64,000 nucleotides of DNA. Source: an uncultured Acidimicrobiia bacterium (GTDB lineage Bacteria; Acidobacteriota; Terriglobia; Versatilivoradales; Versatilivoraceae). The DNA is taken from the NCBI GenBank assembly GCA_963786955.1, contig CAWBAT010000008.1, positions 448,001-512,000 on the forward strand, given 5' to 3'. The notes beneath the pieces were generated by a model. It did not search any database and was not told the DNA's origin. It was given only the letters and a program-made list of their open reading frames with translations. Of this stretch, positions 1 to 9,101 are shown piece by piece; the first letter of the stretch is position 1, and every line of letters starts with the position of its first letter. The position numbers and the translations under genes are program-made.

Positions 1-528
1 GTCCGGCCGCAATACTTCATCCCCATTCATGGCGAGTATCGTCAACTCTTCCGCCACGCCGAAATCGCGCAATCGATCAATGCCGTGAGCAAGAAAGTGA
101 TCATCGCTGAAACGGGCGACCGGATCCAAATCAGCTCGCATGGAGCCCGACTCGCCGGGAAAGTTCCTGTTGGAAGAATCTTTATCGACGAAGGCAGTTT
201 GGATGAAGTGGAAGATGTGGTCGTGCGGGACCGCCGCCACCTGGCTGAAGATGGCATCGTTCTGCCGATTTTGGCGATTCATCGATCGACTGGAAAGCTT
301 GAAGGCCAGCCTGAAATCATCACCCGAGGTTTCGTCGTGATGGATGATGCCGATCCGTTATTAGAAGAGTCTCGCCAACGCGTGTTAAAAACTTTGGAAG
401 AATCCACTTTTGAAGAGCGAACCGATTGGGCCGTGATCAAAGAGAAGATCCGGACCGACCTGCGGCGTTTCCTTTTCAAACAAACCTCCAAACGCCCCTT
501 GGTTCTCCCGGTAATATTGGAGATTTAG
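1..528 (+). CDS. rnj: Ribonuclease J, C-terminal part (5' truncated by window edge)
   Basis: Frame 1 from base 1 reads VRPQYFIPIHGEYRQLFRHA...VPVGRIFIDEG...RDRRHLAEDG...PEIITRGFV...KRPLVLPVILEI, typical of the RNase J C-terminus. Confidence 0.93.
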   Translation, partial: VRPQYFIPIHGEYRQLFRHAEIAQSINAVSKKVIIAETGDRIQISSHGARLAGKVPVGRIFIDEGSLDEVEDVVVRDRRHLAEDGIVLPILAIHRSTGKLEGQPEIITRGFVVMDDADPLLEESRQRVLKTLEESTFEERTDWAVIKEKIRTDLRRFLFKQTSKRPLVLPVILEI

Positions 529-533
529 CGTGT

Positions 534-977
534 GTAGCGACAGGCGTCCACGCCTGTCGGCGCCGTGTGGCAAAGCGCTGGTGCCGGAGCCGTTGCCCCC
601 GAGCGGACAGGGAATTTGTGAAGTAATTCAATTTTGGTTCCCCTCCTTGCTAAGTACTGCTATTCGTAATTACGGTGACGTTTCTGAGGTATGGCGCCGC
701 GTGGGGTCACGCGGCCTACAAAGTTGTAGGCCGGGTCACCGACCCGGCGTTAACGTCACCGTATTTATGAAATGCAGTACTAAGGAGGGGGGCGAGGGGG
801 TGGCCGTTCTGGTGGGGCGCGCACGCCCTGCCCGCCGAACTAACGGCCTGAAAGGCCTCTTCATACCGTAGCCGAGGGCAACGCCCTCGGTTACGATTCC
901 AAAATGTCCGTTGCCCTGTAAGGGCAACACAAACTGGTGCACCGAATCTCTAGGGCTGTCTCAGCGAGACAGCCGTA
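534..977. repeat. Cluster of REP-like palindromes of several families
   Basis: GTAG-led hairpins GTAGCGACAGGCGTCCACGCCTGTCG (534-559) and GTAGCCGAGGGCAACGCCCTCGGTTAC (868-894); GGCCTGAAAGGCC and GCCCTGTAAGGGC hairpins; TAGGGCTGTCTCAGCGAGACAGCC (~950-974). Confidence 0.7.
655..779. mobile_element. 125-bp MITE-like element with imperfect 28-bp TIRs and a CTAAG target duplication
   Basis: Left end TACTGCTATTCGTAATTACGGTGACGTT; reverse complement of the right end TACTGCATTTCATAAATACGGTGACGTT; CTAAG at 650-654 and 780-784. Confidence 0.75.
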
Positions 978-1059
978 CCAATTGACTCTTTGATCATGTG
1001 TGACAACTTCAGGCCTAAACGCATAGGTCCGCCCCTGACGACCTCTTAACCAACTTCTC

Positions 1060-1887
1060 ATGAATGCCATTCAAGCCATTATCCTCGGCGCGGTGCAAGG
1101 GTTTACGGAATTTCTCCCTATTAGTAGTTCGGCTCATTTGATTTTGGTTCCCTGGATTATGGGTTGGGAGGACCAGGGCCTGACGTTTGATGTGGTTCTT
1201 CATGCCGGAACACTCCTGGCCATTCTTACCTACTTCTGGAAAGACTGGTACGGCATGCTTCGAGGGATTCTGAACTGGAAAAGCAATACCGAGGTTGAAG
1301 GAAACGCTGTTGAATCAAGACTTTTTTTATATGTGGTTTGTGCCACCATCCCGGCAGCCCTAGCGGGGTTCTTGGCCGAAAAGACAGTGGAGACAACCCT
1401 CAGGAGTCCCTTTGTCCTTTCCTTTACGATGATTGGAGTGGCGGTTCTTTTGTGGGTAGCTGAAAAGACTGCCAAACTCAAGAAAGGGCTTTCTGAACTG
1501 ACGCTGCCAGATGCACTCAGCATTGGTACGGCCCAGGCTCTTGCCCTGATCCCGGGAACATCCCGATCCGGAATCACGATTACCACCGGGCTTTTTCTCG
1601 GCTTCACCCGGGAAACAGCGGCCCGCTTTTCCTTTCTGTTATCCGCCCCAATCATCGCCGGAGCCGGCCTGAAGAAAGCGCTGGAACTCCGGCACGAAGG
1701 CATCCCCCACACGCATTTGTTCCCCATACTGCTGGGTTTTCTCTCCTCTCTGGTTGTGGGATACTTGACCATCCGGTTCCTGATGAGTTATCTTCAAAAA
1801 AATTCATTGTTCATCTTTATCTGCTACCGTATTCTGCTAGGGATGGTGATTTTGTTTTTGATCCATTTCGCAGGGTTCCGCCCATGA
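1060..1887 (+). CDS. uppP: Undecaprenyl-diphosphatase (BacA/UppP)
   Basis: QGFTEFLPISSSAH and PGTSRSGIT motifs; multi-pass membrane protein. Confidence 0.97.
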   Translation: MNAIQAIILGAVQGFTEFLPISSSAHLILVPWIMGWEDQGLTFDVVLHAGTLLAILTYFWKDWYGMLRGILNWKSNTEVEGNAVESRLFLYVVCATIPAALAGFLAEKTVETTLRSPFVLSFTMIGVAVLLWVAEKTAKLKKGLSELTLPDALSIGTAQALALIPGTSRSGITITTGLFLGFTRETAARFSFLLSAPIIAGAGLKKALELRHEGIPHTHLFPILLGFLSSLVVGYLTIRFLMSYLQKNSLFIFICYRILLGMVILFLIHFAGFRP

Positions 1888-4196
1888 GCCTTCTGGTGCC
1901 CTCAAAACATCCACGCATCAATGAAGCCGTCGGTATTGTGTTTTTCACGTTGACGTTTCTGATCTTTCTGAGCCTGATCTCCTATCACCCGTCTGACCCT
2001 TCGCTCAACAGTTCGCGAAACCTGTTAACCGATCATAATGTGGGGAATCTCATTGGACGGTTCGGTTCGACGCTCTCCGATTTGTTGCTCCAGTTGCTGG
2101 GTTACCCTTCTTTCCTGCTGCCGGTGATGTTTTCGATTCTCGGCTGGAGATGGCTGAAATCGCAGCCCATCGAAATCCCGTGGATCAAGGCCTTAGGCTT
2201 GGTCGGGCTGCTGGCTTCCACTTGTGCTCTGGCCGGACTTCTTTTCCCCAATTATCTCAGCATCGGCTGGTCTCTCAAGGCCGGAGGGCTATGGGGCGAC
2301 CTGCTCGGGGATTGGTTGAAGTCCCGGTTTAATTTGGCCGGTTCGTTGATTCTGACCGTGTCCGTCCTTCTGATTTCGCTCTTTGTTTCGACGCGATTCT
2401 CGTTCTCTGCCCTAGTTGCCTGGTTCAAGAATCATAGTGGATTTATCATGGAGTGGCGTGACCGTTGGGTTCTTAATCGTAAGGTCAGGGCCAAGGAAAA
2501 AGAACGAGTCCGGCTTGAAAAGGCAATGTTAGCGGAGGCGAAGGCCCGGGAAACTGCCAAGACAGTGATCAAACAATCCGTGACAGAGCTCAAAGAGCAG
2601 GGGGAAGCCTCCGCCAGGCGGATTCCCAAAGAGCCCTCTCCACGAAACATGGATTTTGCCGATGCCGAGCCGGTAATTCATTCGAAACGGGCTCCCATCG
2701 AGAAGGCCCATTTTATCCCGACCGGGACCAAGGATTTTGTTTTTCCCCGCATCACTTCGTTACATCCCTCGGAAGGTCAACAGATCGTCAATGAAAAAGA
2801 ACTGCGGCAGCGGGCGATCCAGTTGACGGAAAAATGCAAAGAGTTCGATGTCCACGGTCAGGTGATGCAGATTCACCCAGGCCCCGTCGTCACGACTTAT
2901 GAATTCAAGCCCGAGCCAGGCGTGAAATACAGCCGGATCACGAATTTGGTAGATGACCTTTGTCTCGCGTTGAAAGCCGAATCGGTTCGCATCGACCGGC
3001 TGCCCGGGAAATCTACGGTAGGCGTCGAAGTACCGAATTCTTTTCGCGAGACAATTTATCTTCGCGAGATCATCGAATCGGTCGAATTTCAGAACTCCCC
3101 ATCCAAGTTGACCATTGCCTTAGGGAAAGACATTGCAGGCAAAATCACGGTTGCCGACCTGACCAAGATGCCGCACTTGCTGATTGCAGGGCAAACTGGA
3201 TCCGGCAAGAGCGTTGCCGTCAATGCCATGATTCTTTCCATTCTGTATAAGGCAACACCGGACGAAGTAAAATTTATCCTGGTGGACCCGAAACGTCTCG
3301 AATTGGGCCTGTATGAAGACATTCCCCATTTGCTCACCCCGGTGGTCACGGAGCCCAAGCGCGCCTCGAACGCGCTGAAATGGGCAACCAATGAAATGGA
3401 GAATCGCTATAAGCTTCTAGCGACGGTGGGTGTCAGAAACATCGAACAATACAATGCACTGGTCAGTAAGCCCAAAACCCTGGAGCTCTTTCCGGTAGAG
3501 GAGATCGAAAGAAAGCCACTCCCGTTCATTGTCATTGTCATCGACGAATTGGCTGACCTGATGATGGTGGCCTCAAAAGACGTCGAAGACTCGGTGATGC
3601 GCTTGGCGCAGATGGCCAGGGCTGTGGGGATCCATTTGATTGTCGCGACTCAACGGCCTTCGGTGGATATCCTGACGGGTGTCATCAAGGCGAATTTTCC
3701 GTGCCGCATCTCGTTCCGTGTGGCCCAGAAGGTGGACTCTCGTACAATCTTGGATCAAATGGGGGCCCAGCAGTTATTGGGGAAAGGCGACATGCTTTTC
3801 ATTCCACCGGGTTCGTCCAAAATGGTGCGAGTGCATGCTCCCTTTGTGAGTGAAGATGAAACCAGCGAGATTGTGAAGCATCTTAAGGCTCAGTGCCAAC
3901 CCGTCTACAACCAGAAGGTGCTGGAAGACACCGGAGAGAAGGACAAGCAGCTCGCCGAGGTTGACGCTGAGGTGGACGAGATGTATGAAGAGGCCGTGCG
4001 TATTGTGGTCGAGATGGGGAAAGGCTCAACCTCCATCCTCCAGCGGCGGTTGCGACTCGGTTATGGTCGCGCTGCTCGCCTCATCGATATGATGGAACGC
4101 GACGGCATCGTCGGCCCCGCAGATGGCAGCAAACCGCGCGAAATTCTCAAACGGCGTGATTTCTTTAAGGAAATTGACGAAGAGCGGGGAGCGTAG
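1884..4196 (+). CDS. ftsK: DNA translocase FtsK/SpoIIIE
   Basis: N-terminal TM domain, MPHLLIAGQTGSGKS Walker A, IVIDELADLM, ATQRPSVD, and gamma domain LQRRLRLGYGRAARLID. Confidence 0.97.
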   Translation: MSLLVPSKHPRINEAVGIVFFTLTFLIFLSLISYHPSDPSLNSSRNLLTDHNVGNLIGRFGSTLSDLLLQLLGYPSFLLPVMFSILGWRWLKSQPIEIPWIKALGLVGLLASTCALAGLLFPNYLSIGWSLKAGGLWGDLLGDWLKSRFNLAGSLILTVSVLLISLFVSTRFSFSALVAWFKNHSGFIMEWRDRWVLNRKVRAKEKERVRLEKAMLAEAKARETAKTVIKQSVTELKEQGEASARRIPKEPSPRNMDFADAEPVIHSKRAPIEKAHFIPTGTKDFVFPRITSLHPSEGQQIVNEKELRQRAIQLTEKCKEFDVHGQVMQIHPGPVVTTYEFKPEPGVKYSRITNLVDDLCLALKAESVRIDRLPGKSTVGVEVPNSFRETIYLREIIESVEFQNSPSKLTIALGKDIAGKITVADLTKMPHLLIAGQTGSGKSVAVNAMILSILYKATPDEVKFILVDPKRLELGLYEDIPHLLTPVVTEPKRASNALKWATNEMENRYKLLATVGVRNIEQYNALVSKPKTLELFPVEEIERKPLPFIVIVIDELADLMMVASKDVEDSVMRLAQMARAVGIHLIVATQRPSVDILTGVIKANFPCRISFRVAQKVDSRTILDQMGAQQLLGKGDMLFIPPGSSKMVRVHAPFVSEDETSEIVKHLKAQCQPVYNQKVLEDTGEKDKQLAEVDAEVDEMYEEAVRIVVEMGKGSTSILQRRLRLGYGRAARLIDMMERDGIVGPADGSKPREILKRRDFFKEIDEERGA

Positions 4197-4204
4197 AAAA
4201 AATT

Positions 4205-4385
4205 GTCCACGGTCTAAGGTCAAAAGCAAATCTCTTATGTCCAAAGTCGAAGGTCTAGGGTCCAACGTCCAGGGTCGAATAAAAGGTCAAAAGTCGAAGG
4301 TCAGAATTAGAAGTCTAAGGTCTAAGGTCGAAGGTCGGAACTAAAAAATCCAAGGTCGAAGGTCGAGAGCCTAGAGTCCAGGAAA
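4205..4385 (+). repeat. Degenerate 7-bp tandem array (GTCNAAG-like), about 20 units
   Basis: gtctaag gtcaaaa ... gtccaaa gtcgaag gtctagg gtccaac gtccagg ... gtctaag gtctaag gtcgaag gtcggaa. Confidence 0.9.
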
Positions 4386-4412
4386 TAGAGGTTCCAGATT
4401 GAGGACTGAAGC

Positions 4413-4811
4413 ATGGCCGGGATTGAGAAATTTGAAGATATCGAGGCTTGGCAAGAGGCAAGAAACCTGACTCAAACGATTTACGCATTATCTTCAAATG
4501 GCAATTTCTCTAAAGATTTTGCGCTCAAGGATCAGGTCCGGAGAGCTGCAGTTTCCATCATGTCCAATATTGCTGAGGGATTTGAGCGAAGGGGAGACAG
4601 AGAGTTTCATCACTTCTTGTCCATAGCCAAGGCATCAAGCGGGGAATTACGCTCCCAACTTTATGTTGCCTTGGATCAACATTACATGGACCTGCAGCAG
4701 TTCACTACACTTTCAAACCAGGTAACTCACATTAGCTGCCTCATTGCAGGATTCATGAAGTACCTTGAACAATCAATCGAGAATAGGAACAAGAAGAGCC
4801 CTGGTCTATGA
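4413..4811 (+). CDS. Four helix bundle protein (23S rRNA IVP / bAvd-like family)
   Basis: FEDIEAWQEAR, LKDQVRRAAVSIMSNIAEGFER and FLSIAKASSGELRSQL motifs. Confidence 0.93.
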   Translation: MAGIEKFEDIEAWQEARNLTQTIYALSSNGNFSKDFALKDQVRRAAVSIMSNIAEGFERRGDREFHHFLSIAKASSGELRSQLYVALDQHYMDLQQFTTLSNQVTHISCLIAGFMKYLEQSIENRNKKSPGL

Positions 4812-4823
4812 ATCTACATTGGG

Positions 4824-4874
4824 CTTTAGACCTTTGACGTTTGACCTTAGACTTTTGACCTTCGACCCGGGACC
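4824..4874 (-). repeat. Inverted copy of the 7-bp array downstream of the four-helix gene
   Basis: Reverse complement reads gtcccgg gtcgaag gtcaaaa gtctaag gtcaaac gtcaaag gtctaaa. Confidence 0.85.
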
Positions 4875-5204
4875 TTATTTGTCTTCAGTCTTGACGTTTT
4901 CCTCAATCCAATTCAAATAATTAGCAGAACCAGCGACGATCGGAAGCGCAATGATTTCCGGCACGGCATAAGAATGCAAGCGCTCCACCTCCTTCTGAAG
5001 TTCCGGGAACTTCTCGCGTGAAGTTTTCATGATAAGCAAGACTTCTTGATCTTCAGTCACTTTCCCTTCCCACCAATACCAGGAAGTAATGGAGGGTACA
5101 AGATTCACGCAAGCCGCAAATTTCTTCTCTACGAGGTCCTTGGCTAATTTTGCTGCCTCTGCGGAGTCCCCAACTGTCACCATCACGACGATCTTGTCAG
5201 TCAT
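4875..5204 (-). CDS. cutA: Divalent-cation tolerance protein CutA
   Basis: LVEKKFAACVN, SWYWWEGK and LHSYAVPEIIALPI motifs. Confidence 0.95.
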   Translation of the reverse strand: MTDKIVVMVTVGDSAEAAKLAKDLVEKKFAACVNLVPSITSWYWWEGKVTEDQEVLLIMKTSREKFPELQKEVERLHSYAVPEIIALPIVAGSANYLNWIEENVKTEDK

Positions 5205-5554
5205 TCAGCCCTCCAGCACAGCACCGTATTTAAAGAGGTCCGTGTGAATAATTGTTTCTCATTATAACGATTTTGAGCTAGACTACCGCTACATTTCGGA
5301 ATGGAGAAGCCAACCCCTGAAAACTCCTATGCAGTTGGGGTTTCCGGCGGGTTGATCATAGACAAAGACAGGCAAATTGGATGGCGTCCTTAGACATTTC
5401 GAGATGAATATCCAGGTTCCCCGAAACCAAGAAGTTTTAAGAAGCTCTCCTGACACGGGAGACAACGCATAGAATAGCAGGGCACTGCACATTTCATATT
5501 TTATAGGCGGCCAGCCCCTTGCGGCGTTGCGAGAAAACGAAAGTTATGTTTACC

Positions 5555-5714
5555 GGTTGCCCCTGAAAGGGGCGGAACAAGAATAGCCCAGGGCAGAGCG
5601 AGTGGCGCCAGCCACAAGCGGCGCCCTGGGTAAGAATGCGTTACATCAAAACCCCTCTCCCCCGCGTGGGGTGAAGGAGAGGGATTGGGTGAGGGGGTAG
5701 TTGATGTGATTCGC
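5555..5714. repeat. Palindromic REP/MITE-like elements
   Basis: GCCCCTGAAAGGGGC...AGCCCAGGGC...GCCCTGGG (same family as 845-926) and CATCAA-ACCCCTCTCCCC...GAGGGGGT-TTGATG hairpin. Confidence 0.6.
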
Positions 5715-5724
5715 GTCGGGTTTC

Positions 5725-6090
5725 ATGAAACCACCGAAAAAAACCCTAGCTGATATGAAAAATTTCTCGCTCAGGCAGATTTTAATTCTTTTTATTGCTA
5801 TTCTCCTATTGCTGGCGGGTTATTCAGCGCTGTTTGGAGAATACGGTTTTGTCGCCATAAGAAAAGCGGAACGACACTCGCAGGAATACATCCAGCGAGT
5901 AGAGCAGTTGAAGAAAGAGAACCTGGAAATCAGAAACGAAATTCGCGCATTGAAAAAAGATCCGACAGCAATTGAAAAAATTGCTCGTGAAGAGCTGGGC
6001 CTCGTCAAAGAAGGAGAGATCAAAATGTCTCCTGCGAAACAGCATGAAGATCCTCCTAAAAGCCCTCCCACACAAGATTCCCACCCTTAA
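5725..6090 (+). CDS. ftsB: Septum formation initiator (FtsB/DivIC family)
   Basis: Single TM helix, FGEYG, coiled coil, IEKIAREELGLVKEGE; true start may be the downstream Met. Confidence 0.85.
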   Translation: MKPPKKTLADMKNFSLRQILILFIAILLLLAGYSALFGEYGFVAIRKAERHSQEYIQRVEQLKKENLEIRNEIRALKKDPTAIEKIAREELGLVKEGEIKMSPAKQHEDPPKSPPTQDSHP

Positions 6091-6114
6091 CAGAATCCAC
6101 GACTCCTCCTCAAT

Positions 6115-6232
6115 CTTGACTTCTAACCCTTGACTTTTTACCTTTGAACTTAGACCTCCAACATTCGGCCTTCGACTTTAGACTTTCGACCTCCGACTTT
6201 TGATTCCGACCTTCGACCTTAGACTTTTGAAT
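6115..6232 (-). repeat. Third 7-bp array (same family as 4205-4385, opposite strand)
   Basis: Reverse complement: gtctaag gtcgaag gtcggaa ... gtcggag gtcgaaa gtctaaa gtcgaag ...; 21-nt perfect complement of 4320-4340 at 6204-6224. Confidence 0.88.
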
Positions 6233-6236
6233 TGCC

Positions 6237-6266
6237 TTGACTCGAATCTCATCCAATCCATATAAT
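6237..6266 (+). promoter_or_regulatory. sigma70 promoter of the tRNA
   Basis: TTGACT-N18-TATAAT ending 14 nt upstream of the tRNA. Confidence 0.75.
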
Positions 6267-6280
6267 GCTCTTAGATCAGA

Positions 6281-6357
<77 letters not shown>

Positions 6358-6475
6358 AATTTCCTCAGCTCTTCAATCCTTCCAACCCTTTATTGCTCCG
6401 TACCTTATAGGCTAGTTCAGTCTTTCCGGCAAGTCCTCCTCTTGATCGTCATTTTCCTCATTTGCTAACAAACTG

Positions 6476-7613
6476 CTAACAATTGGTTTTTTCGCGGCCC
6501 TTTAACATCCGTTTTTCTAGCTTCGCGCAAGCTTCAGCTTTAGCCTGTGGGAATAAGTGTCCGTAAGTGTCGAATGTGATCTGAATGCTCGAATGTCCCA
6601 GTTGGTCAGAAACATATTTTGCACTTTCTCCCTGGGAAATCAACATCGATGCAAAGAAATGGCGGAGATCGTGGAATCGAGCAGTGCCCAATCCGGCGGC
6701 GCGCTTGATCGGCTTGAAAATGTGGTCGTCGAAGAAGTCTGGATCAATAAGATTTCCCTGACTACCACGGAAAATGAAACTGTCTGAGCTCTCCGCTGCC
6801 TGCTTCAACCGAGAGAGTAGCTGGATTACGTGATCGCTGAGCCCGACCCGTCGCGAAGATCTTTTTGATTTCGGAGGACCAATTTTCCAAAGCCATTTAT
6901 GAACCCCATCGGTCGCCGCGCACTTCGACAGCGCCTTATTGACGCGAAGCTCTTTTTGAAACCAGTCAATGTCCTCAAACCGTAAAGCCAGAATCTCCCC
7001 TCGACGCAGCCCAGTGAACGCATCCAGATAGATAATCCCATGGCCAATGTTCTTAAGCTCAGCGGCAGTGTCGATCAGTTTCCACACTTGGTCTACTGTG
7101 GGTGGAACAATTTGTTCATGGTTGATCAACGGAAGTTCTACACCCTCGACCGGATTGAAGTGAATGTAACCCTGTTTTCGCGCGCTGCTGCCTTTTGGGC
7201 TGAAACAGCATGACTCTCAGGAGGGTCACGGTATTTCGCAGCGTCTTGGTGGAAACATCCTTGGCGAGCTGAGCAACAAAACTTTGGACATTCTCCAGTC
7301 GAATTTGCTGCAACTTCATGGGACCAAAGAGTGGAATCAGATGCTTTCGAATAATCGACTCATAAGCCGATGAGGTCGAGCCACGGATGCTCAACCGGCT
7401 GGAGATGTAGCTCTCGGCAAACTCAGCAAATGTGACCGTCCTGGGCTCGACATAATCGCCCTTATTGATCTGAGTGAGTATCTCATTGAGCTGTGCGCGG
7501 GCGGATGCCTTGTTTGGAAAGCCCCCCAGCCACTTCTGCTTTCCCCCAGGAATTCGGTAGACAATGGTGTAAGAGCCACCTCGACAAATGATTGAACCAC
7601 TTTGCCTTCGCAT
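6476..7613 (-). pseudogene. Tyrosine recombinase/phage integrase split by a single-base frameshift near 7203-7205
   Basis: The N-terminal arm/core-binding ORF (7116-7613) joins in another frame to SPKGSSARKQGYIHFNPVEGVELP and then the catalytic domain GLRRGE, PPKS, HDLRH, LGH, DTY; lies next to the tRNA 3' end. Confidence 0.88.
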
Positions 7614-7629
7614 TGCTCAGTCCTTATGG

Positions 7630-8278
7630 GAGAGGGAGGCGACCACATGACCTGTTGCTCCCCGTGTTTCAGCGAGTTCAGCGCCTTGGTTGACCAAGCT
7701 CGGTATCGTAAGCGGATCGTTGTCGGAGGGATTTGTACCTTCCTGCTGATGACAATTGGGTTGGCAACGTGGCTTGGCCTCAGTCACTGGCGCTCGATCG
7801 TCGGGTGAGTCGATAACCCGTAAGCCCCCTTCAGCAGGGCAACCAGAGCAGAGAGGAAACCGCAACAAAAAATCCGTATGAGCCCAATCGTGAGGAGCAG
7901 CCGACCGAGATGGCTAGTCAGCAGCCTAAACCGAAAATCTATCAGGATGTGATTCTGGACGTAAGAGATCAAGCTGTGACGCGGGGTCAGAAAACATCCC
8001 CGCCTAAAGGGAAATATCCCGAGATCCCAAGGGGACACCTCAACCTGTCAATCTATTTGCCATTCGCAAGCGAACCTGGGGAATACCAGGTCAGAATCTA
8101 TAAAGATCCAAATAAACCCTTACTGGACACAACCGGTATGGCCACGATCCAAAAATCCATCACGATTCTCGAAATCAAAGTAAACGCCAGCTACTTCACA
8201 CCGGGTGAGTATGTACTAGAAACTCGCCGCAGCGGATGGACTTTGAGTTACAAATACACTTTCCTGGTCGCGGAGTAG
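7630..8278 (+). pseudogene. Remnant of a zinc anti-sigma-like membrane protein (HxxxCxxC, TM helix, extracytoplasmic domain)
   Basis: DHMTCCSPCFSEF followed by a hydrophobic helix, then a stop/frameshift, then ORF 7910-8278 (LSIYLPFASEPGEYQV). Confidence 0.5.
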
Positions 8279-8421
8279 GTAGCTAGACCTATTGTGAGAG
8301 GACCTCTACCTCCGGCTGACCGACCGAGGATTCTAGCAGCAGGCCTTGCCATCTTCGAAAGTTTCTTGCAAAGAAGTGCATGACTATATAGTATAATTGC
8401 TATATTAAGCTGGAGGTCTAG

Positions 8422-8784
8422 TTGCCGACAATAAAGCCGCTGCGCTGGGTGGCAAGTAGCAAGAAAGATCTGCTCGCTTTCCCAGAGGATGTACGTCAAG
8501 AAATCGGATATGCCCTGTACTTCGCCCAGGCGGGAGACAAGCACCCAGCAGCCAAACCTCTGAAAGGCTTTCATGGAGCTGGGGTTTTGGAAATCGTGGA
8601 GGACCAAAAGGGAGCCACGTATCGGGCCGTTTACACGGTGAAATTCGCGGCGGTGGTCTATGTTCTTCACGCCTTTCAAAAGAAATCGACGAAGGGAATT
8701 GCAACTCCGCAGCATGAAATCGAACTGATTAAGGATCGGCTGAAACTAGCTGAAGCTAATTACAAAAGGGGGCAAGAGTCATGA
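8422..8784 (+). CDS. Type II toxin, RelE/ParE (HigB/Gp49-like) family
   Basis: SSKKDLLAFPEDVRQEIGYAL, GVLEIVED, YRAVYTVKF, YVLHAFQKKS. Confidence 0.9.
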   Translation: MPTIKPLRWVASSKKDLLAFPEDVRQEIGYALYFAQAGDKHPAAKPLKGFHGAGVLEIVEDQKGATYRAVYTVKFAAVVYVLHAFQKKSTKGIATPQHEIELIKDRLKLAEANYKRGQES

Positions 8785-9101
8785 AACTAGTAACCGAAAG
8801 CAGTGGGAATGTATTTGAGGATTTGGGATTTGCCAACTCGAAAGAATTGTTGGCAAAAACCGAGCTGGCTCGCCAGGTCTACCTCATCATTAAGAAACGT
8901 GGTCTGACTCAAACGGCTGCAGCCGATCTGCTCGGATTGAAGCAGCCCGATGTCTCCTTGTTGATGCGTGGCCGTTTATCGAGGTTCTCTACCGACCGTT
9001 TGATCCAAATGCTAAATGTGCTGGATCGAGATGTGGAAATCGTGGTCAAACGCAAGTCCAGTTCCAAGCGGAAGGGGTCCGTGAGAGTTATCGCCGCATG
9101 A
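8781..9101 (+). CDS. XRE-family HTH antitoxin
   Basis: SSGNVFEDLG, LTQTAAADLLGLKQPDVS, FSTDRL; ATGA overlap with the toxin gene. Confidence 0.9.
   Translation: MKLVTESSGNVFEDLGFANSKELLAKTELARQVYLIIKKRGLTQTAAADLLGLKQPDVSLLMRGRLSRFSTDRLIQMLNVLDRDVEIVVKRKSSSKRKGSVRVIAA

What the first reader, a model, noticed from the sequence alone, without database searches (positions are those of the whole stretch)
4205..4874. Four-helix-bundle gene enclosed by inverted 7-bp tandem arrays: candidate RNA-structured mobile or regulatory module
Seen: about 20 degenerate GTCNAAG units upstream and about 7 reverse-complement units downstream bracket a bAvd/IVP-like ORF placed right after ftsK, with no transposase. 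The arrays could pair in many registers and loop out the ORF in the transcript. Established: the family includes proteins encoded in excised 23S rRNA intervening sequences and is structurally related to the DGR accessory protein Avd; its function is unknown. Inference: an IVS-like excisable unit, or a protein recognising its own heptamer array. This is my strongest candidate for an uncharacterised system here.
Basis: partly seen in the sequence, partly recalled or inferred. Interest (0 to 1): 0.72.

Follow-up and report, generated by a model that had tools for sequence, protein, structure and literature searches.

The report
Four-helix gene wrapped in its repeats
A small gene of a 30-year-old mystery family sits between ftsK and cutA, enclosed by mirror-image arrays of a 7-base repeat that the encoded protein itself most likely reads, which gives that family and the puzzling 7-base repeats of bacteria a testable function.

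Summary
ORF 4413-4811 (PF05635/TIGR02436) lies between a 5' arm with 19 GTC-cored heptamers (4205-4381) and a complementary 3' arm (4815-4872). A third, gene-less array lies at 6110-6230.

It is not a local oddity. By eye all 8 PF05635 loci of this genome have inverted arrays, each with its own unit; a strict automated rule passes 4 of 8, against 2 of 20,000 random segments. TRF finds arrays on both sides of 63 of 80 relatives from many phyla.

At the ftsK-cutA site the cassette is old and vertically inherited. It is intact in three species, flipped in two, decayed in several and not found in two.

Three results point to the protein reading its own repeats:
- The unit is GTYNNDR, with a fixed core and free spacers.
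- The unit beside a genome's gene predicts which arrays abound there.
- Residue 62 tracks core base 3: D/E with C, N/T/S with T. This held in a second sample, and one clade of D rows was rejected (p-AU 0.011).

Its relative Avd grips an RNA hairpin with five protomers.

No RNA wobble signature, excision or mobility was seen. I found no paper on this architecture. Earlier notes of this scan report it in over 100 other genomes.

The parts
1884..4196 (+). ftsK, the left neighbour; its stop codon lies 9 nt before the first repeat unit
   Evidence: ORF; Pfam FtsK_SpoIIIE 2.3e-72 with the 4TM, alpha and gamma domains
4205..4381 (+). 5' arm: about 19 degenerate heptamers GTCNAAG in blocks of 2-6 units; every core is GTC
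   Evidence: TRF; pattern count against shuffles; 19 GTC, 0 GTT, spacings mostly 7
4382..4412 (+). Leader with a Shine-Dalgarno-like GAGGA (4401-4405) before the ATG; it is conserved in G002, where it is inverted together with the ORF
   Evidence: Sequence; comparison of the G000 and G002 junctions
4413..4811 (+). Four-helix-bundle gene (23S rRNA IVP / S23p / TIGR02436 family), 132 aa; Asp62 at the N-cap of helix 3
   Evidence: PF05635 3.4e-34, TIGR02436 1.3e-32; PDB 2gsc at E 3.6e-14; AlphaFold2 model with pLDDT 95 and helices 11-27, 36-58, 62-88, 94-128; Foldseek 2gsc TM 0.79-0.93, 2rld, Avd 4dwl
4815..4872 (-). 3' arm: 6-7 units CTTNGAC, the reverse complement of the 5' arm; it ends 3 nt before the cutA stop codon
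   Evidence: TRF; 6 GTC at spacing 7 on the reverse complement; pairs with the 5' arm in the fold
4875..5204 (-). cutA, the right neighbour, convergent with ftsK
   Evidence: ORF; CutA1 1.6e-39
6110..6230 (-). Gene-less array of the same unit class (10 GTC, 3 GTT on the reverse complement) between ftsB and tRNA-Met; also present but shorter in G002, and present in G001
   Evidence: TRF rows 6115-6147 and 6171-6227; G002 sequence; G001 matches at C72:3275-3495

Best explanation
This is a resident, vertically inherited cassette of the same build as the ORF-bearing intervening sequences of 23S rRNA: a four-helix-bundle gene (IVP/S23p, a relative of the DGR protein Avd) enclosed by two complementary tandem arrays. 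I propose that the arrays are the recognition sites of the encoded protein. By homology (inferred) the protein forms a pentamer, as Xcc0516, BT_0352 and Avd do. Each protomer would read one R-G-T-Y core, spaced every 7 nt here and every 8 or 9 nt in some other clades. Residue 62, at the N-cap of helix 3, would specify the third core base: Asp here, hence GTC. The commonest arm in relatives has five cores, which would fit one ring. Because the period varies while the core stays, the ligand is more likely single-stranded or hairpin nucleic acid than B-form DNA. Avd's grip on its RNA stem-loop through flipped-out bases is the precedent. The complementary arm can sequester the sites in a long hairpin, so protein and hairpin would compete. 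That would give autoregulation of the cassette, and action in trans on the many gene-less arrays of the same unit that sit between genes. Recombination between the inverted arms flips the ORF and keeps the arms alike. Shown here: the anatomy, its generality, the orthology with inversion and decay, core conservation, genome-level cognate arrays, and residue-base covariation. Inferred: binding itself, the pentamer for this protein, RNA versus DNA, and the physiological role.
For: (1) By eye all 8 PF05635 loci of the genome have inverted arrays, each with its own unit. A strict automated rule passes 4 of 8 loci against 2 of 20,000 random 400-bp segments. (2) In 80 loci from many phyla, TRF finds arrays on both sides in 63, on one side in 15 and on neither in 2, and period 7 dominates. 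Where both arms were scored, the units are inverted copies within 1 mismatch in 35 of 43. (3) The unit logo over 73 loci, in ORF sense, is G 71, T 67, Y 71, N, N, not-C, R 71, so the core is fixed and the spacer saturated. (4) Cognate arrays: (GTCNAAG)x3 gives 110, 111, 68, 86, 58, 58 and 21 matches in the 7 genomes that also hold an IVP at least 55% identical to this one. The 29 genomes without a 50% homologue give 0-12. G031, whose IVP genes are flanked by GAGTTCC and GTSCTGA, has 0 class-A matches, but 215 GTSCTGA matches (25 in G007, at most 2 elsewhere) and 246 GAGTYCN matches. (5) In the own genome 95 of 137 period-7 arrays fall within 1 mismatch of the five unit classes that flank IVP genes, against 27% for random heptamers. 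(6) Residue 62 against core base 3: D gives GTC 34, GTT 0. N/T/S give GTT 57, GTC 2, other 2. E gives GTC 2. In the second sample alone, D gives GTC 15, GTT 0, and N/T/S give GTT 17, GTC 0. One clade of all D rows is rejected with column 62 removed (p-AU 0.011). A starred N subclade with GTT 8-mers nests among D rows with GTC. (7) The window obeys the rule: D62, and 19 + 6 GTC against 0 GTT in the two arms. (8) Family members 2gsc and 2rld are deposited with five chains. All five protomers of the Avd pentamer contact an RNA stem-loop, with flipped-out bases in the crevices between protomers (preprint 10.1101/2023.10.23.563531, passages read). (9) Inversion: the ORF lies on the opposite strand in G002 and G010 while the arm polarity is unchanged.
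Against: No binding was measured; all support is comparative. With the first 69 proteins alone, one clade of the D rows could not be rejected (p-AU 0.21). On well-supported branches only 5 independent contrasts exist (3 concordant, 0 discordant, 2 uninformative; sign test p 0.25), so the covariation rests on few provable events. There are exceptions: L078 (T with GTC) and L098 (N with GTC). The 26 second-sample loci with other residues at position 62 (R, A, P, H and others) were left out and show mixed cores. The unit rotation was chosen by fit to a profile, which inflates the logo somewhat. Arm mismatches show no excess of G.U over A.C in mRNA sense (74 against 64, p 0.44), so pair-by-pair selection on an RNA stem is not visible. 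In the more distant subfamily D the units are diverse, and some have the opposite chirality. Several genomes with a homologue of at least 50% identity have few class-A arrays: G017 7, G006 3, G003 0. A sixth array class (AAGGCAG, 14 arrays) has no IVP gene in this 93%-complete assembly. The arrays here are long and degenerate, not the neat five-core arms of most relatives.
Confidence: 0.55

Rival explanations
1. A selfish DNA system of the REPIN-RAYT kind. The IVP protein acts on DNA hairpins made by the arrays and spreads or maintains gene-less copies around the genome. The single-copy gene flanked by its own repeats is the stationary 'master'.
For: The layout is the same as for RAYT genes (recalled knowledge): a gene flanked by inverted copies of its cognate repeat, with many gene-less copies of that class between genes. 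Here 95 of 137 arrays fall in the classes that flank IVP genes. Array class tracks the gene across genomes. The gene is vertically stable at one site. Arm mismatches look DNA-like, with no wobble bias. Arm lengths differ between species.
Against: The family has no known nuclease or recombinase chemistry. Its invariant residues (E8, D35, Q41, S48, N52, E55, G56 and others) match no catalytic motif known to me. Paralogs are old (17-49% identical to this one). No near-identical gene-less copies were looked for or seen. A period that varies between 7, 8 and 9 nt fits flexible single strands, which this rival also allows, so it is not excluded.
Confidence: 0.2
2. A purely RNA-level intervening-sequence-like element. 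The arms form a long double-stranded stem in the ftsK read-through transcript, and RNase III cuts it, as in 23S rRNA IVSs. This separates or destabilises the IVP message. The protein's function would have nothing to do with the arrays.
For: The fold pairs the arms around the ORF with z -5.3. [quoted passage not shown] No terminator-like site and no convincing promoter lies within 4000-5000, so read-through from ftsK is plausible.
Against: A stem needs only complementarity. That does not explain a core conserved across phyla with a fixed chirality, different cores for paralogs in one cell, or the residue 62-base 3 link. There is no G.U over A.C excess. No joints or ends were seen in the RNA contigs, but these could not have shown them.
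Confidence: 0.12
3. Hitch-hiking. Heptamer arrays are a slippage-prone intergenic repeat of these genomes, with their own cause. IVP genes merely tend to land in, or be retained within, such hairpins. The arrays could serve as bidirectional terminators between convergent genes.
For: Period-7 arrays are common in this genome: 140 TRF arrays of at least 3 copies, the next period having 25. Arrays survive at this junction after the gene has decayed (G012, G011, G016, G017). Array regions are somewhat enriched between convergent genes (20 of 78 intergenic regions, against 14% background). Relatives without the cassette have a short GC-rich hairpin there instead (G014, G007).
Against: It does not explain why the unit class follows the IVP subfamily within one genome and across genomes. 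It does not explain the covariation with residue 62, nor the more than 1000-fold enrichment at IVP loci.
Confidence: 0.08

Closest known systems
ORF-bearing intervening sequences (IVS) of 23S rRNA (Coxiella burnetii helix 45, Leptospira, and others) that encode S23p
   Same: Same protein family (PF05635). The ORF sits in the loop of a long stem made by terminal inverted repeats. Tandem heptamers (GACAGAT, three copies, number varying by strain) lie just upstream of the ORF in Coxiella, at the RNase III site (PMC4990558, passages read).
   Different: This cassette lies between two protein genes, not in rRNA. Its arms are whole tandem arrays of 6 to about 19 units. No excision has been shown. 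Gene-less arrays of the same unit are scattered through the genome. The ORF has flipped in sister species.
Avd of diversity-generating retroelements bound to the Sp RNA stem-loop (PDB 4dwl, 8ub7; preprint 10.1101/2023.10.23.563531)
   Same: Same fold (Foldseek TM 0.70/0.85 to 4dwl). Avd is a pentamer. All five protomers contact one RNA hairpin and read flipped-out bases in the crevices between protomers, using the same residues.
   Different: Sequence identity is only 11-15%. No reverse transcriptase or template repeat is in view here. The proposed ligand is a tandem repeat with one core per protomer, not an 11-bp stem with three flipped bases.
REPIN-RAYT systems (REP-associated tyrosine transposases flanked by their REP sequences); recalled, not searched here
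   Same: A single-copy, vertically inherited gene is flanked by inverted copies of its own repeat class, with many gene-less hairpin copies between genes. Different paralogs have different repeat classes.
   Different: RAYTs are HUH nucleases and IVP has no known catalytic motif. REPs are single palindromes, not tandem arrays of 7-9-nt units.
TRAP (trp RNA-binding attenuation protein); recalled, not searched here
   Same: A ring of identical subunits, each reading one short core (GAG/UAG) of a tandem repeat with free spacers. Binding competes with an alternative RNA hairpin.
   Different: Unrelated fold (an 11-mer beta-sandwich ring). It is not encoded inside its own binding sites.
Heptamer direct repeats of Beggiatoaceae, Cyanobacteria, Bacteroidetes (TAACTGA; PMC4679880) and of Geobacter metallireducens (PMC2700814)
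   Same: Abundant intergenic tandem 7-mers, often 4-5 copies, of unknown function, with a patchy distribution across phyla (passages read).
   Different: Those papers do not mention four-helix-bundle or IVS proteins (0 occurrences of the terms searched in each). Most of their sets are direct repeats upstream of start codons, not inverted pairs.

Membership tests
23S rRNA intervening sequence protein / S23p / TIGR02436 four-helix-bundle family (protein) | Match to PF05635 and TIGR02436 above the curated cut-offs | tested here: met
   PF05635 117.7 bits (cut-off 33.8); TIGR02436 112.2 bits (cut-off 24)
23S rRNA intervening sequence protein / S23p / TIGR02436 four-helix-bundle family (protein) | Four-helix-bundle fold like Xcc0516 (2gsc) and BT_0352 (2rld) | tested here: met
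   AlphaFold2 pLDDT 95 with four long helices; Foldseek 2gsc TM 0.79-0.93, rmsd 1.4-1.7; 2rld TM 0.70-0.88
23S rRNA intervening sequence protein / S23p / TIGR02436 four-helix-bundle family (protein) | Conserved motif GxxRxxxSxxxNxxE (Zhang and Ye 2013, PMC3936711, passage read) | tested here: met
   R44, S48, N52 and E55 are invariant or nearly so in alignments A1 and A2. The window protein reads RRAAVSIMSNIAEG.
23S rRNA intervening sequence protein / S23p / TIGR02436 four-helix-bundle family (protein) | Homopentamer | not tested
   Inferred from 2gsc and 2rld (five chains each) and from the literature passage. No complex prediction was run.
23S rRNA intervening sequence (the element) | Inserted in a 23S rRNA helix | tested here: not met
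   It lies between ftsK and cutA. Rfam finds only tRNA-Met in 3900-6500.
23S rRNA intervening sequence (the element) | Terminal inverted repeats that form a stem enclosing the ORF | tested here: met
   Arms at 4205-4381 and 4815-4872; the fold encloses the ORF, z -5.3
23S rRNA intervening sequence (the element) | Excision from the transcript by RNase III | not testable with these tools
   Only assembled RNA contigs were on hand, with no ends or joints.
DGR accessory protein Avd | Encoded next to a DGR reverse transcriptase, with template and variable repeats | not tested
   The ORFs listed for 1-9000 include none that I recognised as a reverse transcriptase, but only six of them were scanned against Pfam. 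No search for a reverse transcriptase or template repeat was run.
Transposable element / MITE | Transposase or recombinase in the unit; multiple near-identical copies; presence/absence with target duplication | tested here: not met
   No such gene lies between the arms. The paralogs are 17-49% identical to this protein. The site is orthologous across genera, with divergence tracking the flanks. Target duplications could not be judged at this divergence.

The most novel reading that the evidence does not exclude
The IVP/S23p proteins are a widespread class of programmable repeat readers. A pentameric ring would have each protomer bind one core of a 7-9-nt tandem repeat, with a simple residue-to-base rule: Asp/Glu62 for C, Asn/Thr/Ser62 for T/U, and possibly small residues for purines. 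Each paralog would own a private set of hairpin arrays across the genome. This would explain the long-unexplained heptamer repeats of many bacterial phyla and the origin of the ORF-bearing rRNA intervening sequences.
Probability: 0.35. Interest if true: 0.9.

Novelty: new variant of a known kind. Interest (0 to 1): 0.78.

Why it matters
The PF05635 family has had a crystal structure since 2006 and a name since 1993, but no function. Tandem heptamers have been noted in cyanobacteria, Beggiatoa, Geobacter and Xanthomonas without a cause. If the protein reads its own repeats by a simple residue-to-base rule, both puzzles become one testable system. A gel shift with a 35-mer and a D62N swap would settle it. 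It would also suggest how Avd-type pentamers came to grip RNA in retroelements, and how an ORF-bearing hairpin could end up inside rRNA. A small ring protein with a one-residue specificity switch for a repeated core could also be a useful RNA or DNA tagging tool.

Tried and rejected
RNA evidence. One RNA run held 26% of the sampled words. Laying four runs gave only assembled contigs: an exact 113-nt piece at 4056-4168, a diverged cutA piece, cross-matches to the conserved motif at 4544-4647 from other organisms, and tRNA. There were no joints or ends, so this says nothing on transcription, processing or circles.

Wobble test. I expected G.U to exceed A.C among arm mismatches if an RNA stem were selected. 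I found 74 against 64 (p 0.44) over the 51 of 88 loci that had a scorable arm alignment.

Known RNA families and signals. There is no Rfam match other than tRNA-Met in 3900-6500. There is no terminator-like site in 4000-5000, and two weak promoter-like sites against 0.8 expected.

Profile search for loci. The 9-sequence alignment was too diverse for the search for related loci, so I used the single protein instead.

G006. From its flanks I guessed that GTSCTGA arrays would abound there, but there were 0 matches. Its arrays are irregular.

Tree-aware test. On starred branches there are too few contrasts to reach significance.

Further residue-base pairs. Unit position 6 against columns 112, 108, 80 and 77 gave raw p values of 4e-8 to 2e-5. 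I did not validate them.

Not run. I did not predict a pentamer complex, because a pass would rest on likeness to 2gsc and 2rld. I did not test population-level inversion, because the single run search and the single read-laying run were already spent.
Full report
**1. What is there**

The window holds three period-7 tandem arrays of one unit:
- 4246-4366: 17.7 copies, consensus GTCGAAG.
- 4824-4867: 6.1 copies, CTTTGAC, the reverse complement.
- 6115-6227: the reverse-complement sense again.

Counting cores directly:
- The 5' arm 4205-4381 holds 19 GTC and no GTT, and 12 of 18 spacings are exactly 7.
- The 3' arm 4815-4872, read as reverse complement, holds 6 GTC, all spaced by 7.
- The third array holds 10 GTC and 3 GTT.

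A two-unit pattern with up to one mismatch occurs 16 times in the window, against 0.27 expected. All 16 lie in these arrays.

Between the first two arrays lies ORF 4413-4811. It matches PF05635 at 3.4e-34 and TIGR02436 at 1.3e-32. It is preceded by GAGGA. The unit fills the whole gap between convergent ftsK (1884-4196) and cutA (4875-5204).

As RNA, 4197-4880 folds with the two arms paired around the ORF. The MFE is -216.2 kcal/mol against -184.8 +/- 5.9 for shuffles, z -5.3. Rfam finds nothing here but tRNA-Met at 6281. No terminator-like site and no convincing promoter is seen in 4000-5000.

**2. The protein**

- PDB by sequence: 2gsc (Xcc0516) at 3.6e-14 and 2rld. Each is deposited with five chains.
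- AlphaFold2 model built on a 50-sequence alignment: pLDDT 95, helices 11-27, 36-58, 62-88 and 94-128.
- Foldseek: 2gsc (TM 0.79-0.93), then 2rld, then Avd (4dwl) and the DGR ribonucleoprotein entries.
- Asp62 is the first residue of helix 3.

**3. The same build around every paralog**

The genome (5.65 Mb, 9 contigs; the window is C8:448001-512000) has ten PF05635 matches at eight loci. Two of the loci are split into two pieces.

Reading their flanks, all eight have tandem 7-mers upstream and the reverse complement downstream. The unit differs by locus:
- GTCNAAG (this one)
- GAGTYCG
- GATRCGR (two loci that are segmental duplicates, each flank itself a hairpin)
- GTYNAAG
- TCATTGN
- CATTYGG
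- GGTYAAG

A strict automated rule asks for both arms at score 8 or more and inverted units within 1 mismatch. It passes 4 of the 8 loci, a fifth passes at 2 mismatches, and three degenerate ones are missed. Only 2 of 20,000 random 400-bp segments pass.

**4. Heptamer arrays in the genome at large**

- Among TRF arrays of at least 3 copies, period 7 has 140. The next commonest period, 6, has 25.
- Of 137 arrays with a 7-letter consensus, 95 lie within one mismatch of the five unit classes that flank IVP genes. Random heptamers do so 27% of the time. Note that the arrays beside IVP genes are themselves included, and the classes were defined from them.
- Another 14 arrays form a sixth class (AAGGCAG/AAAGCAG) with no IVP gene in this 93%-complete assembly.
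- Many arrays form inverted pairs with loops of 15-150 nt, that is, gene-less hairpins.
- Merged into 89 regions, 11 lie inside long ORFs. Of the 78 intergenic regions, 49 are between tandem genes, 20 between convergent genes and 9 between divergent genes. The background is 72%, 14% and 14% (ORF-based gene calls, so crude).

**5. The ftsK-cutA site in relatives**

Earlier notes of the scan call this genome an Acidobacteriota bacterium. I located ftsK, IVP, cutA and ftsB in eleven relatives by tblastn and read the spacers.

| Genome | State at the junction | IVP identity |
|---|---|---|
| G001 (same genus) | Present, same strand as ftsK | 76% |
| G008 (other genus) | Present, same strand as ftsK | 69% |
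| G002 (same genus) | Present, opposite strand | 87% |
| G010 | Present, opposite strand, one in-frame TAG | 60% |
| G016 | Remnant, residues 11-45 | - |
| G017 | Inverted remnant (by eye) | - |
| G012, G011 | Arrays with unrelated filler | - |
| G004 | A few units only | - |
| G014, G007 | Not found; a short GC-rich hairpin instead | - |

In every genome with arrays, the GTC-type arm is on the ftsK side and its complement on the cutA side, whichever way the ORF points.

IVP identity falls in step with the flanks:

| Genome | IVP | ftsK | cutA |
|---|---|---|---|
| G002 | 87% | 95% | 96% |
| G001 | 76% | 89% | 92% |
| G008 | 69% | 76% | 70% |

I read this as one old insertion, inherited vertically, flipped at least twice by recombination between the arms, and lost by decay. 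The arrays outlast the gene. The third array is also present downstream of ftsB in G001 and, shorter, in G002.

**6. Generality**

The window protein found 562 relatives in the species-representative genomes. The best 80 (51-66% identical) come from Acidobacteriota, Planctomycetota, Verrucomicrobiota, Desulfobacterota, Nitrospirota, Chloroflexota, Bacteroidota, Cyanobacteria, Gammaproteobacteria and others.

- TRF finds arrays within 300 nt on both sides in 63, on one side in 15 and on neither in 2. Period 7 accounts for 140 rows, period 14 for 42 and period 8 for 11.
- A stricter scan of 89 loci (these 80 plus nine from this genome and its relatives G001, G002 and G008) scores both arms in 43. 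The upstream unit equals the reverse complement of the downstream unit within 1 mismatch in 35 of them. Read as direct repeats, only 1 of the 43 arm pairs is within 1 mismatch.
- The commonest arm is 31-33 nt, in 26 of 86 arms. That is four units plus a core, or five cores.

**7. A conserved core**

I rotated the units of 73 loci to a common frame, in ORF sense. The result is G 71, T 67, C/T 71, then two free positions, then no C, then A/G 71, or GTYNNDR. The frame was chosen by fit to a profile, which flatters the logo. Still, a GT dinucleotide should occur in about 36% of random cyclic heptamers by my arithmetic.

The chirality, with the GTY arm at the 5' end, does not change when the ORF flips. 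It is nearly constant here.

A stem alone needs no conserved core. A shared host factor would not explain why paralogs in one cell use different cores.

In a second subfamily, 29 loci related to the paralog at C8:340k, the close members (53-61% identical) use YCATTNN units. The distant members are diverse, and some have the opposite chirality.

**8. Cognate arrays across genomes**

(GTCNAAG)x3 with up to 2 mismatches gives these counts:

| Genome | Matches |
|---|---|
| G000 | 110 |
| G001 | 111 |
| G002 | 68 |
| G033 | 86 |
| G010 | 58 |
| G016 | 58 |
| G008 | 21 |

All seven hold an IVP at least 55% identical to this one. G033 belongs to another family. The 29 genomes without a 50% homologue give 0-12.

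Five genomes have such a homologue but few class-A arrays: G017 7, G019 4, G006 3, G003 0, G031 0.

For G031 I read the flanks of its two genes, GAGTTCC and GTSCTGA, and predicted that those units would be the abundant ones there:
- GTSCTGA x3 gives 215 matches in G031, 25 in G007 and at most 2 elsewhere.
- GAGTYCN x3 gives 246 in G031, 38, 20 and 22 in G000-G002, and 23 in G033.

The tool's reversed-pattern control is not clean for these units. These genomes are kin, so the counts are not independent.

**9. Residue 62 and core base 3**

Discovery set: over 69 proteins and 2,292 residue-base tests, the best pair was alignment column 62 against unit position 3.
- D goes with C in 19 of 19.
- N goes with T in 29 of 31.
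- T goes with T in 9 of 10.
- Fisher p is 1.9e-13.
- With these rows alone, one clade of D rows was not rejected (p-AU 0.21).

Second sample: I drew 60 loci from 400 Acidobacteriota genomes and 14 from relatives. None shares its last 100 residues with a first-set protein.

Calls allowed periods of 7-9 nt and needed at least 75% of one core. The second sample alone gives:

| Residue 62 | GTC | GTT | Other or mixed | No call |
|---|---|---|---|---|
| D | 15 | 0 | 1 mixed | 6 |
| E | 2 | 0 | 0 | 0 |
| N | 0 | 11 | 1 GTA | 4 |
| T | 0 | 5 | 1 GTG | 0 |
| S | 0 | 1 | 0 | 1 |

The 26 second-sample loci with R, A, P, H, G, Q, L or I at position 62 were left out. Their cores are mixed, and A goes with purines in the four cases seen.

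Both samples together give D with GTC 34 and GTT 0, and non-D with GTC 4 (two of them E) and GTT 57.

In the tree built without column 62 there is a starred clade (95) with the loop motif GxGRR[ST] and 8-9-nt periods. It holds D rows with GTC units, and a starred subclade (97) of N rows with GTT units nests inside it. One clade of all 41 D rows is rejected (log-likelihood 118 lower, p-AU 0.011).

Only five independent contrasts lie on starred branches. Three go the predicted way and none the other way (p 0.25).

A carboxylate pairing with the amino group of cytosine, and an amide or hydroxyl pairing with T or U, is chemically sensible. That judgement is my own.

**10. RNA or DNA?**

- Against selection on an RNA stem pair by pair: arm mismatches that would be G.U in mRNA sense number 74, and those that would be A.C number 64 (p 0.44; 51 of 88 loci had a scorable alignment).
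- For a single-stranded or hairpin ligand: the period varies between 7, 8 and 9 nt while the core stays. That would wreck helical phasing on duplex DNA.
- Precedent: the related Avd pentamer holds an RNA stem-loop with all five protomers. Flipped-out bases sit in the crevices between protomers and are contacted by the same residues of different protomers (preprint 10.1101/2023.10.23.563531, passages read).
- The public RNA data were contigs only and showed nothing useful.

**11. Literature**

What I saw in each paper:
- Coxiella IVS paper (PMC4990558, passages read): a 28-bp stem, RNase III excision, and three tandem heptamers upstream of the S23p ORF whose number varies between strains. It lists transposon-remnant and mobile-element ideas for IVS origin.
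- MacGregor 2015 (PMC4679880, passages) and the Geobacter metallireducens genome paper (PMC2700814, passages): abundant heptamer repeats. The searched terms for four-helix or IVS proteins occur 0 times in each.
- Zhang and Ye 2013 (PMC3936711, passage): 18 IVP genes in cas loci.
- Altae-Tran 2023 (PMC10910872): a figure legend only, which names the domain.

Five full-text searches turned up no paper that describes inverted tandem arrays as the general setting of this gene family. None links residue 62 to the repeat. Subscription-only papers are not covered.

Earlier notes of this scan report the same architecture in more than 100 other genomes. One claims a residue-to-base code. Those are unchecked notes. 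What I assert rests on the calls above.

**12. Verdict**

The cassette is an IVS-type unit outside rRNA. It is old and vertically inherited at this site, and it can be inverted between its arms. The best-supported reading is that the arrays are the protein's own recognition sites. Excision and mobility are not supported here. The physiological role remains an inference.

Noticed in passing
window 6281-6357 and 6476-7613: tRNA-Met is followed by a phage-type integrase split into two overlapping ORFs (6476-7129 Phage_integrase; 7116-7613 N-terminal SAM-like domain). It looks like a frameshifted remnant of an element integrated at the tRNA.
   Followed up: no
own genome, contig C4:772,388-774,700 (outside the window): A satellite with a period of about 150 bp. 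Each unit has blocks of class-A heptamers (GTCAAAG/GTCCAAG) plus a conserved A-rich segment. It is interrupted by about 700 bp of non-repeat sequence at 772,900-773,620.
   Followed up: partly
own genome, 14 arrays, for example C7:157178-157266 and C4:300854-300994: A sixth heptamer class (AAGGCAG/AAAGCAG), partly as hairpins, has no PF05635 gene beside it in this 93%-complete assembly.
   Followed up: no
L177 (G121:C391) and L198 (G157:C12): In two other Acidobacteriota the IVP cassette, with GCGTC-type arrays, sits directly between stretches that I read by eye as tRNA genes on both sides. No tRNA scan was run on them. If they are tRNA genes, this would be a stable-RNA context reminiscent of the rRNA IVS.
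   Followed up: no
L109 (G033:C26), L183, L186, L197, L201, L185, L191, L196: The repeat period is 8 or 9 nt in some clades (for example GGAAGTCT, GAGTTGCN, GTCTNTTCR), while the GTC or GTT core is kept.
   Followed up: partly
own genome C5:11,892 and C4:382,427: Two IVP cassettes (GATRCGR units) lie in paralogous gene contexts and look like a segmental duplication. Each flank is itself a hairpin (A A' - ORF - A A').
   Followed up: no
L107 (G017:C208:7352-7726): In G017 an intact class-A IVP cassette lies two genes upstream of ftsK, between the homologue of the window's first ORF and a uppP-like gene (judged by eye from the flanks). The ftsK-cutA site of G017 holds only a remnant.
   Followed up: no
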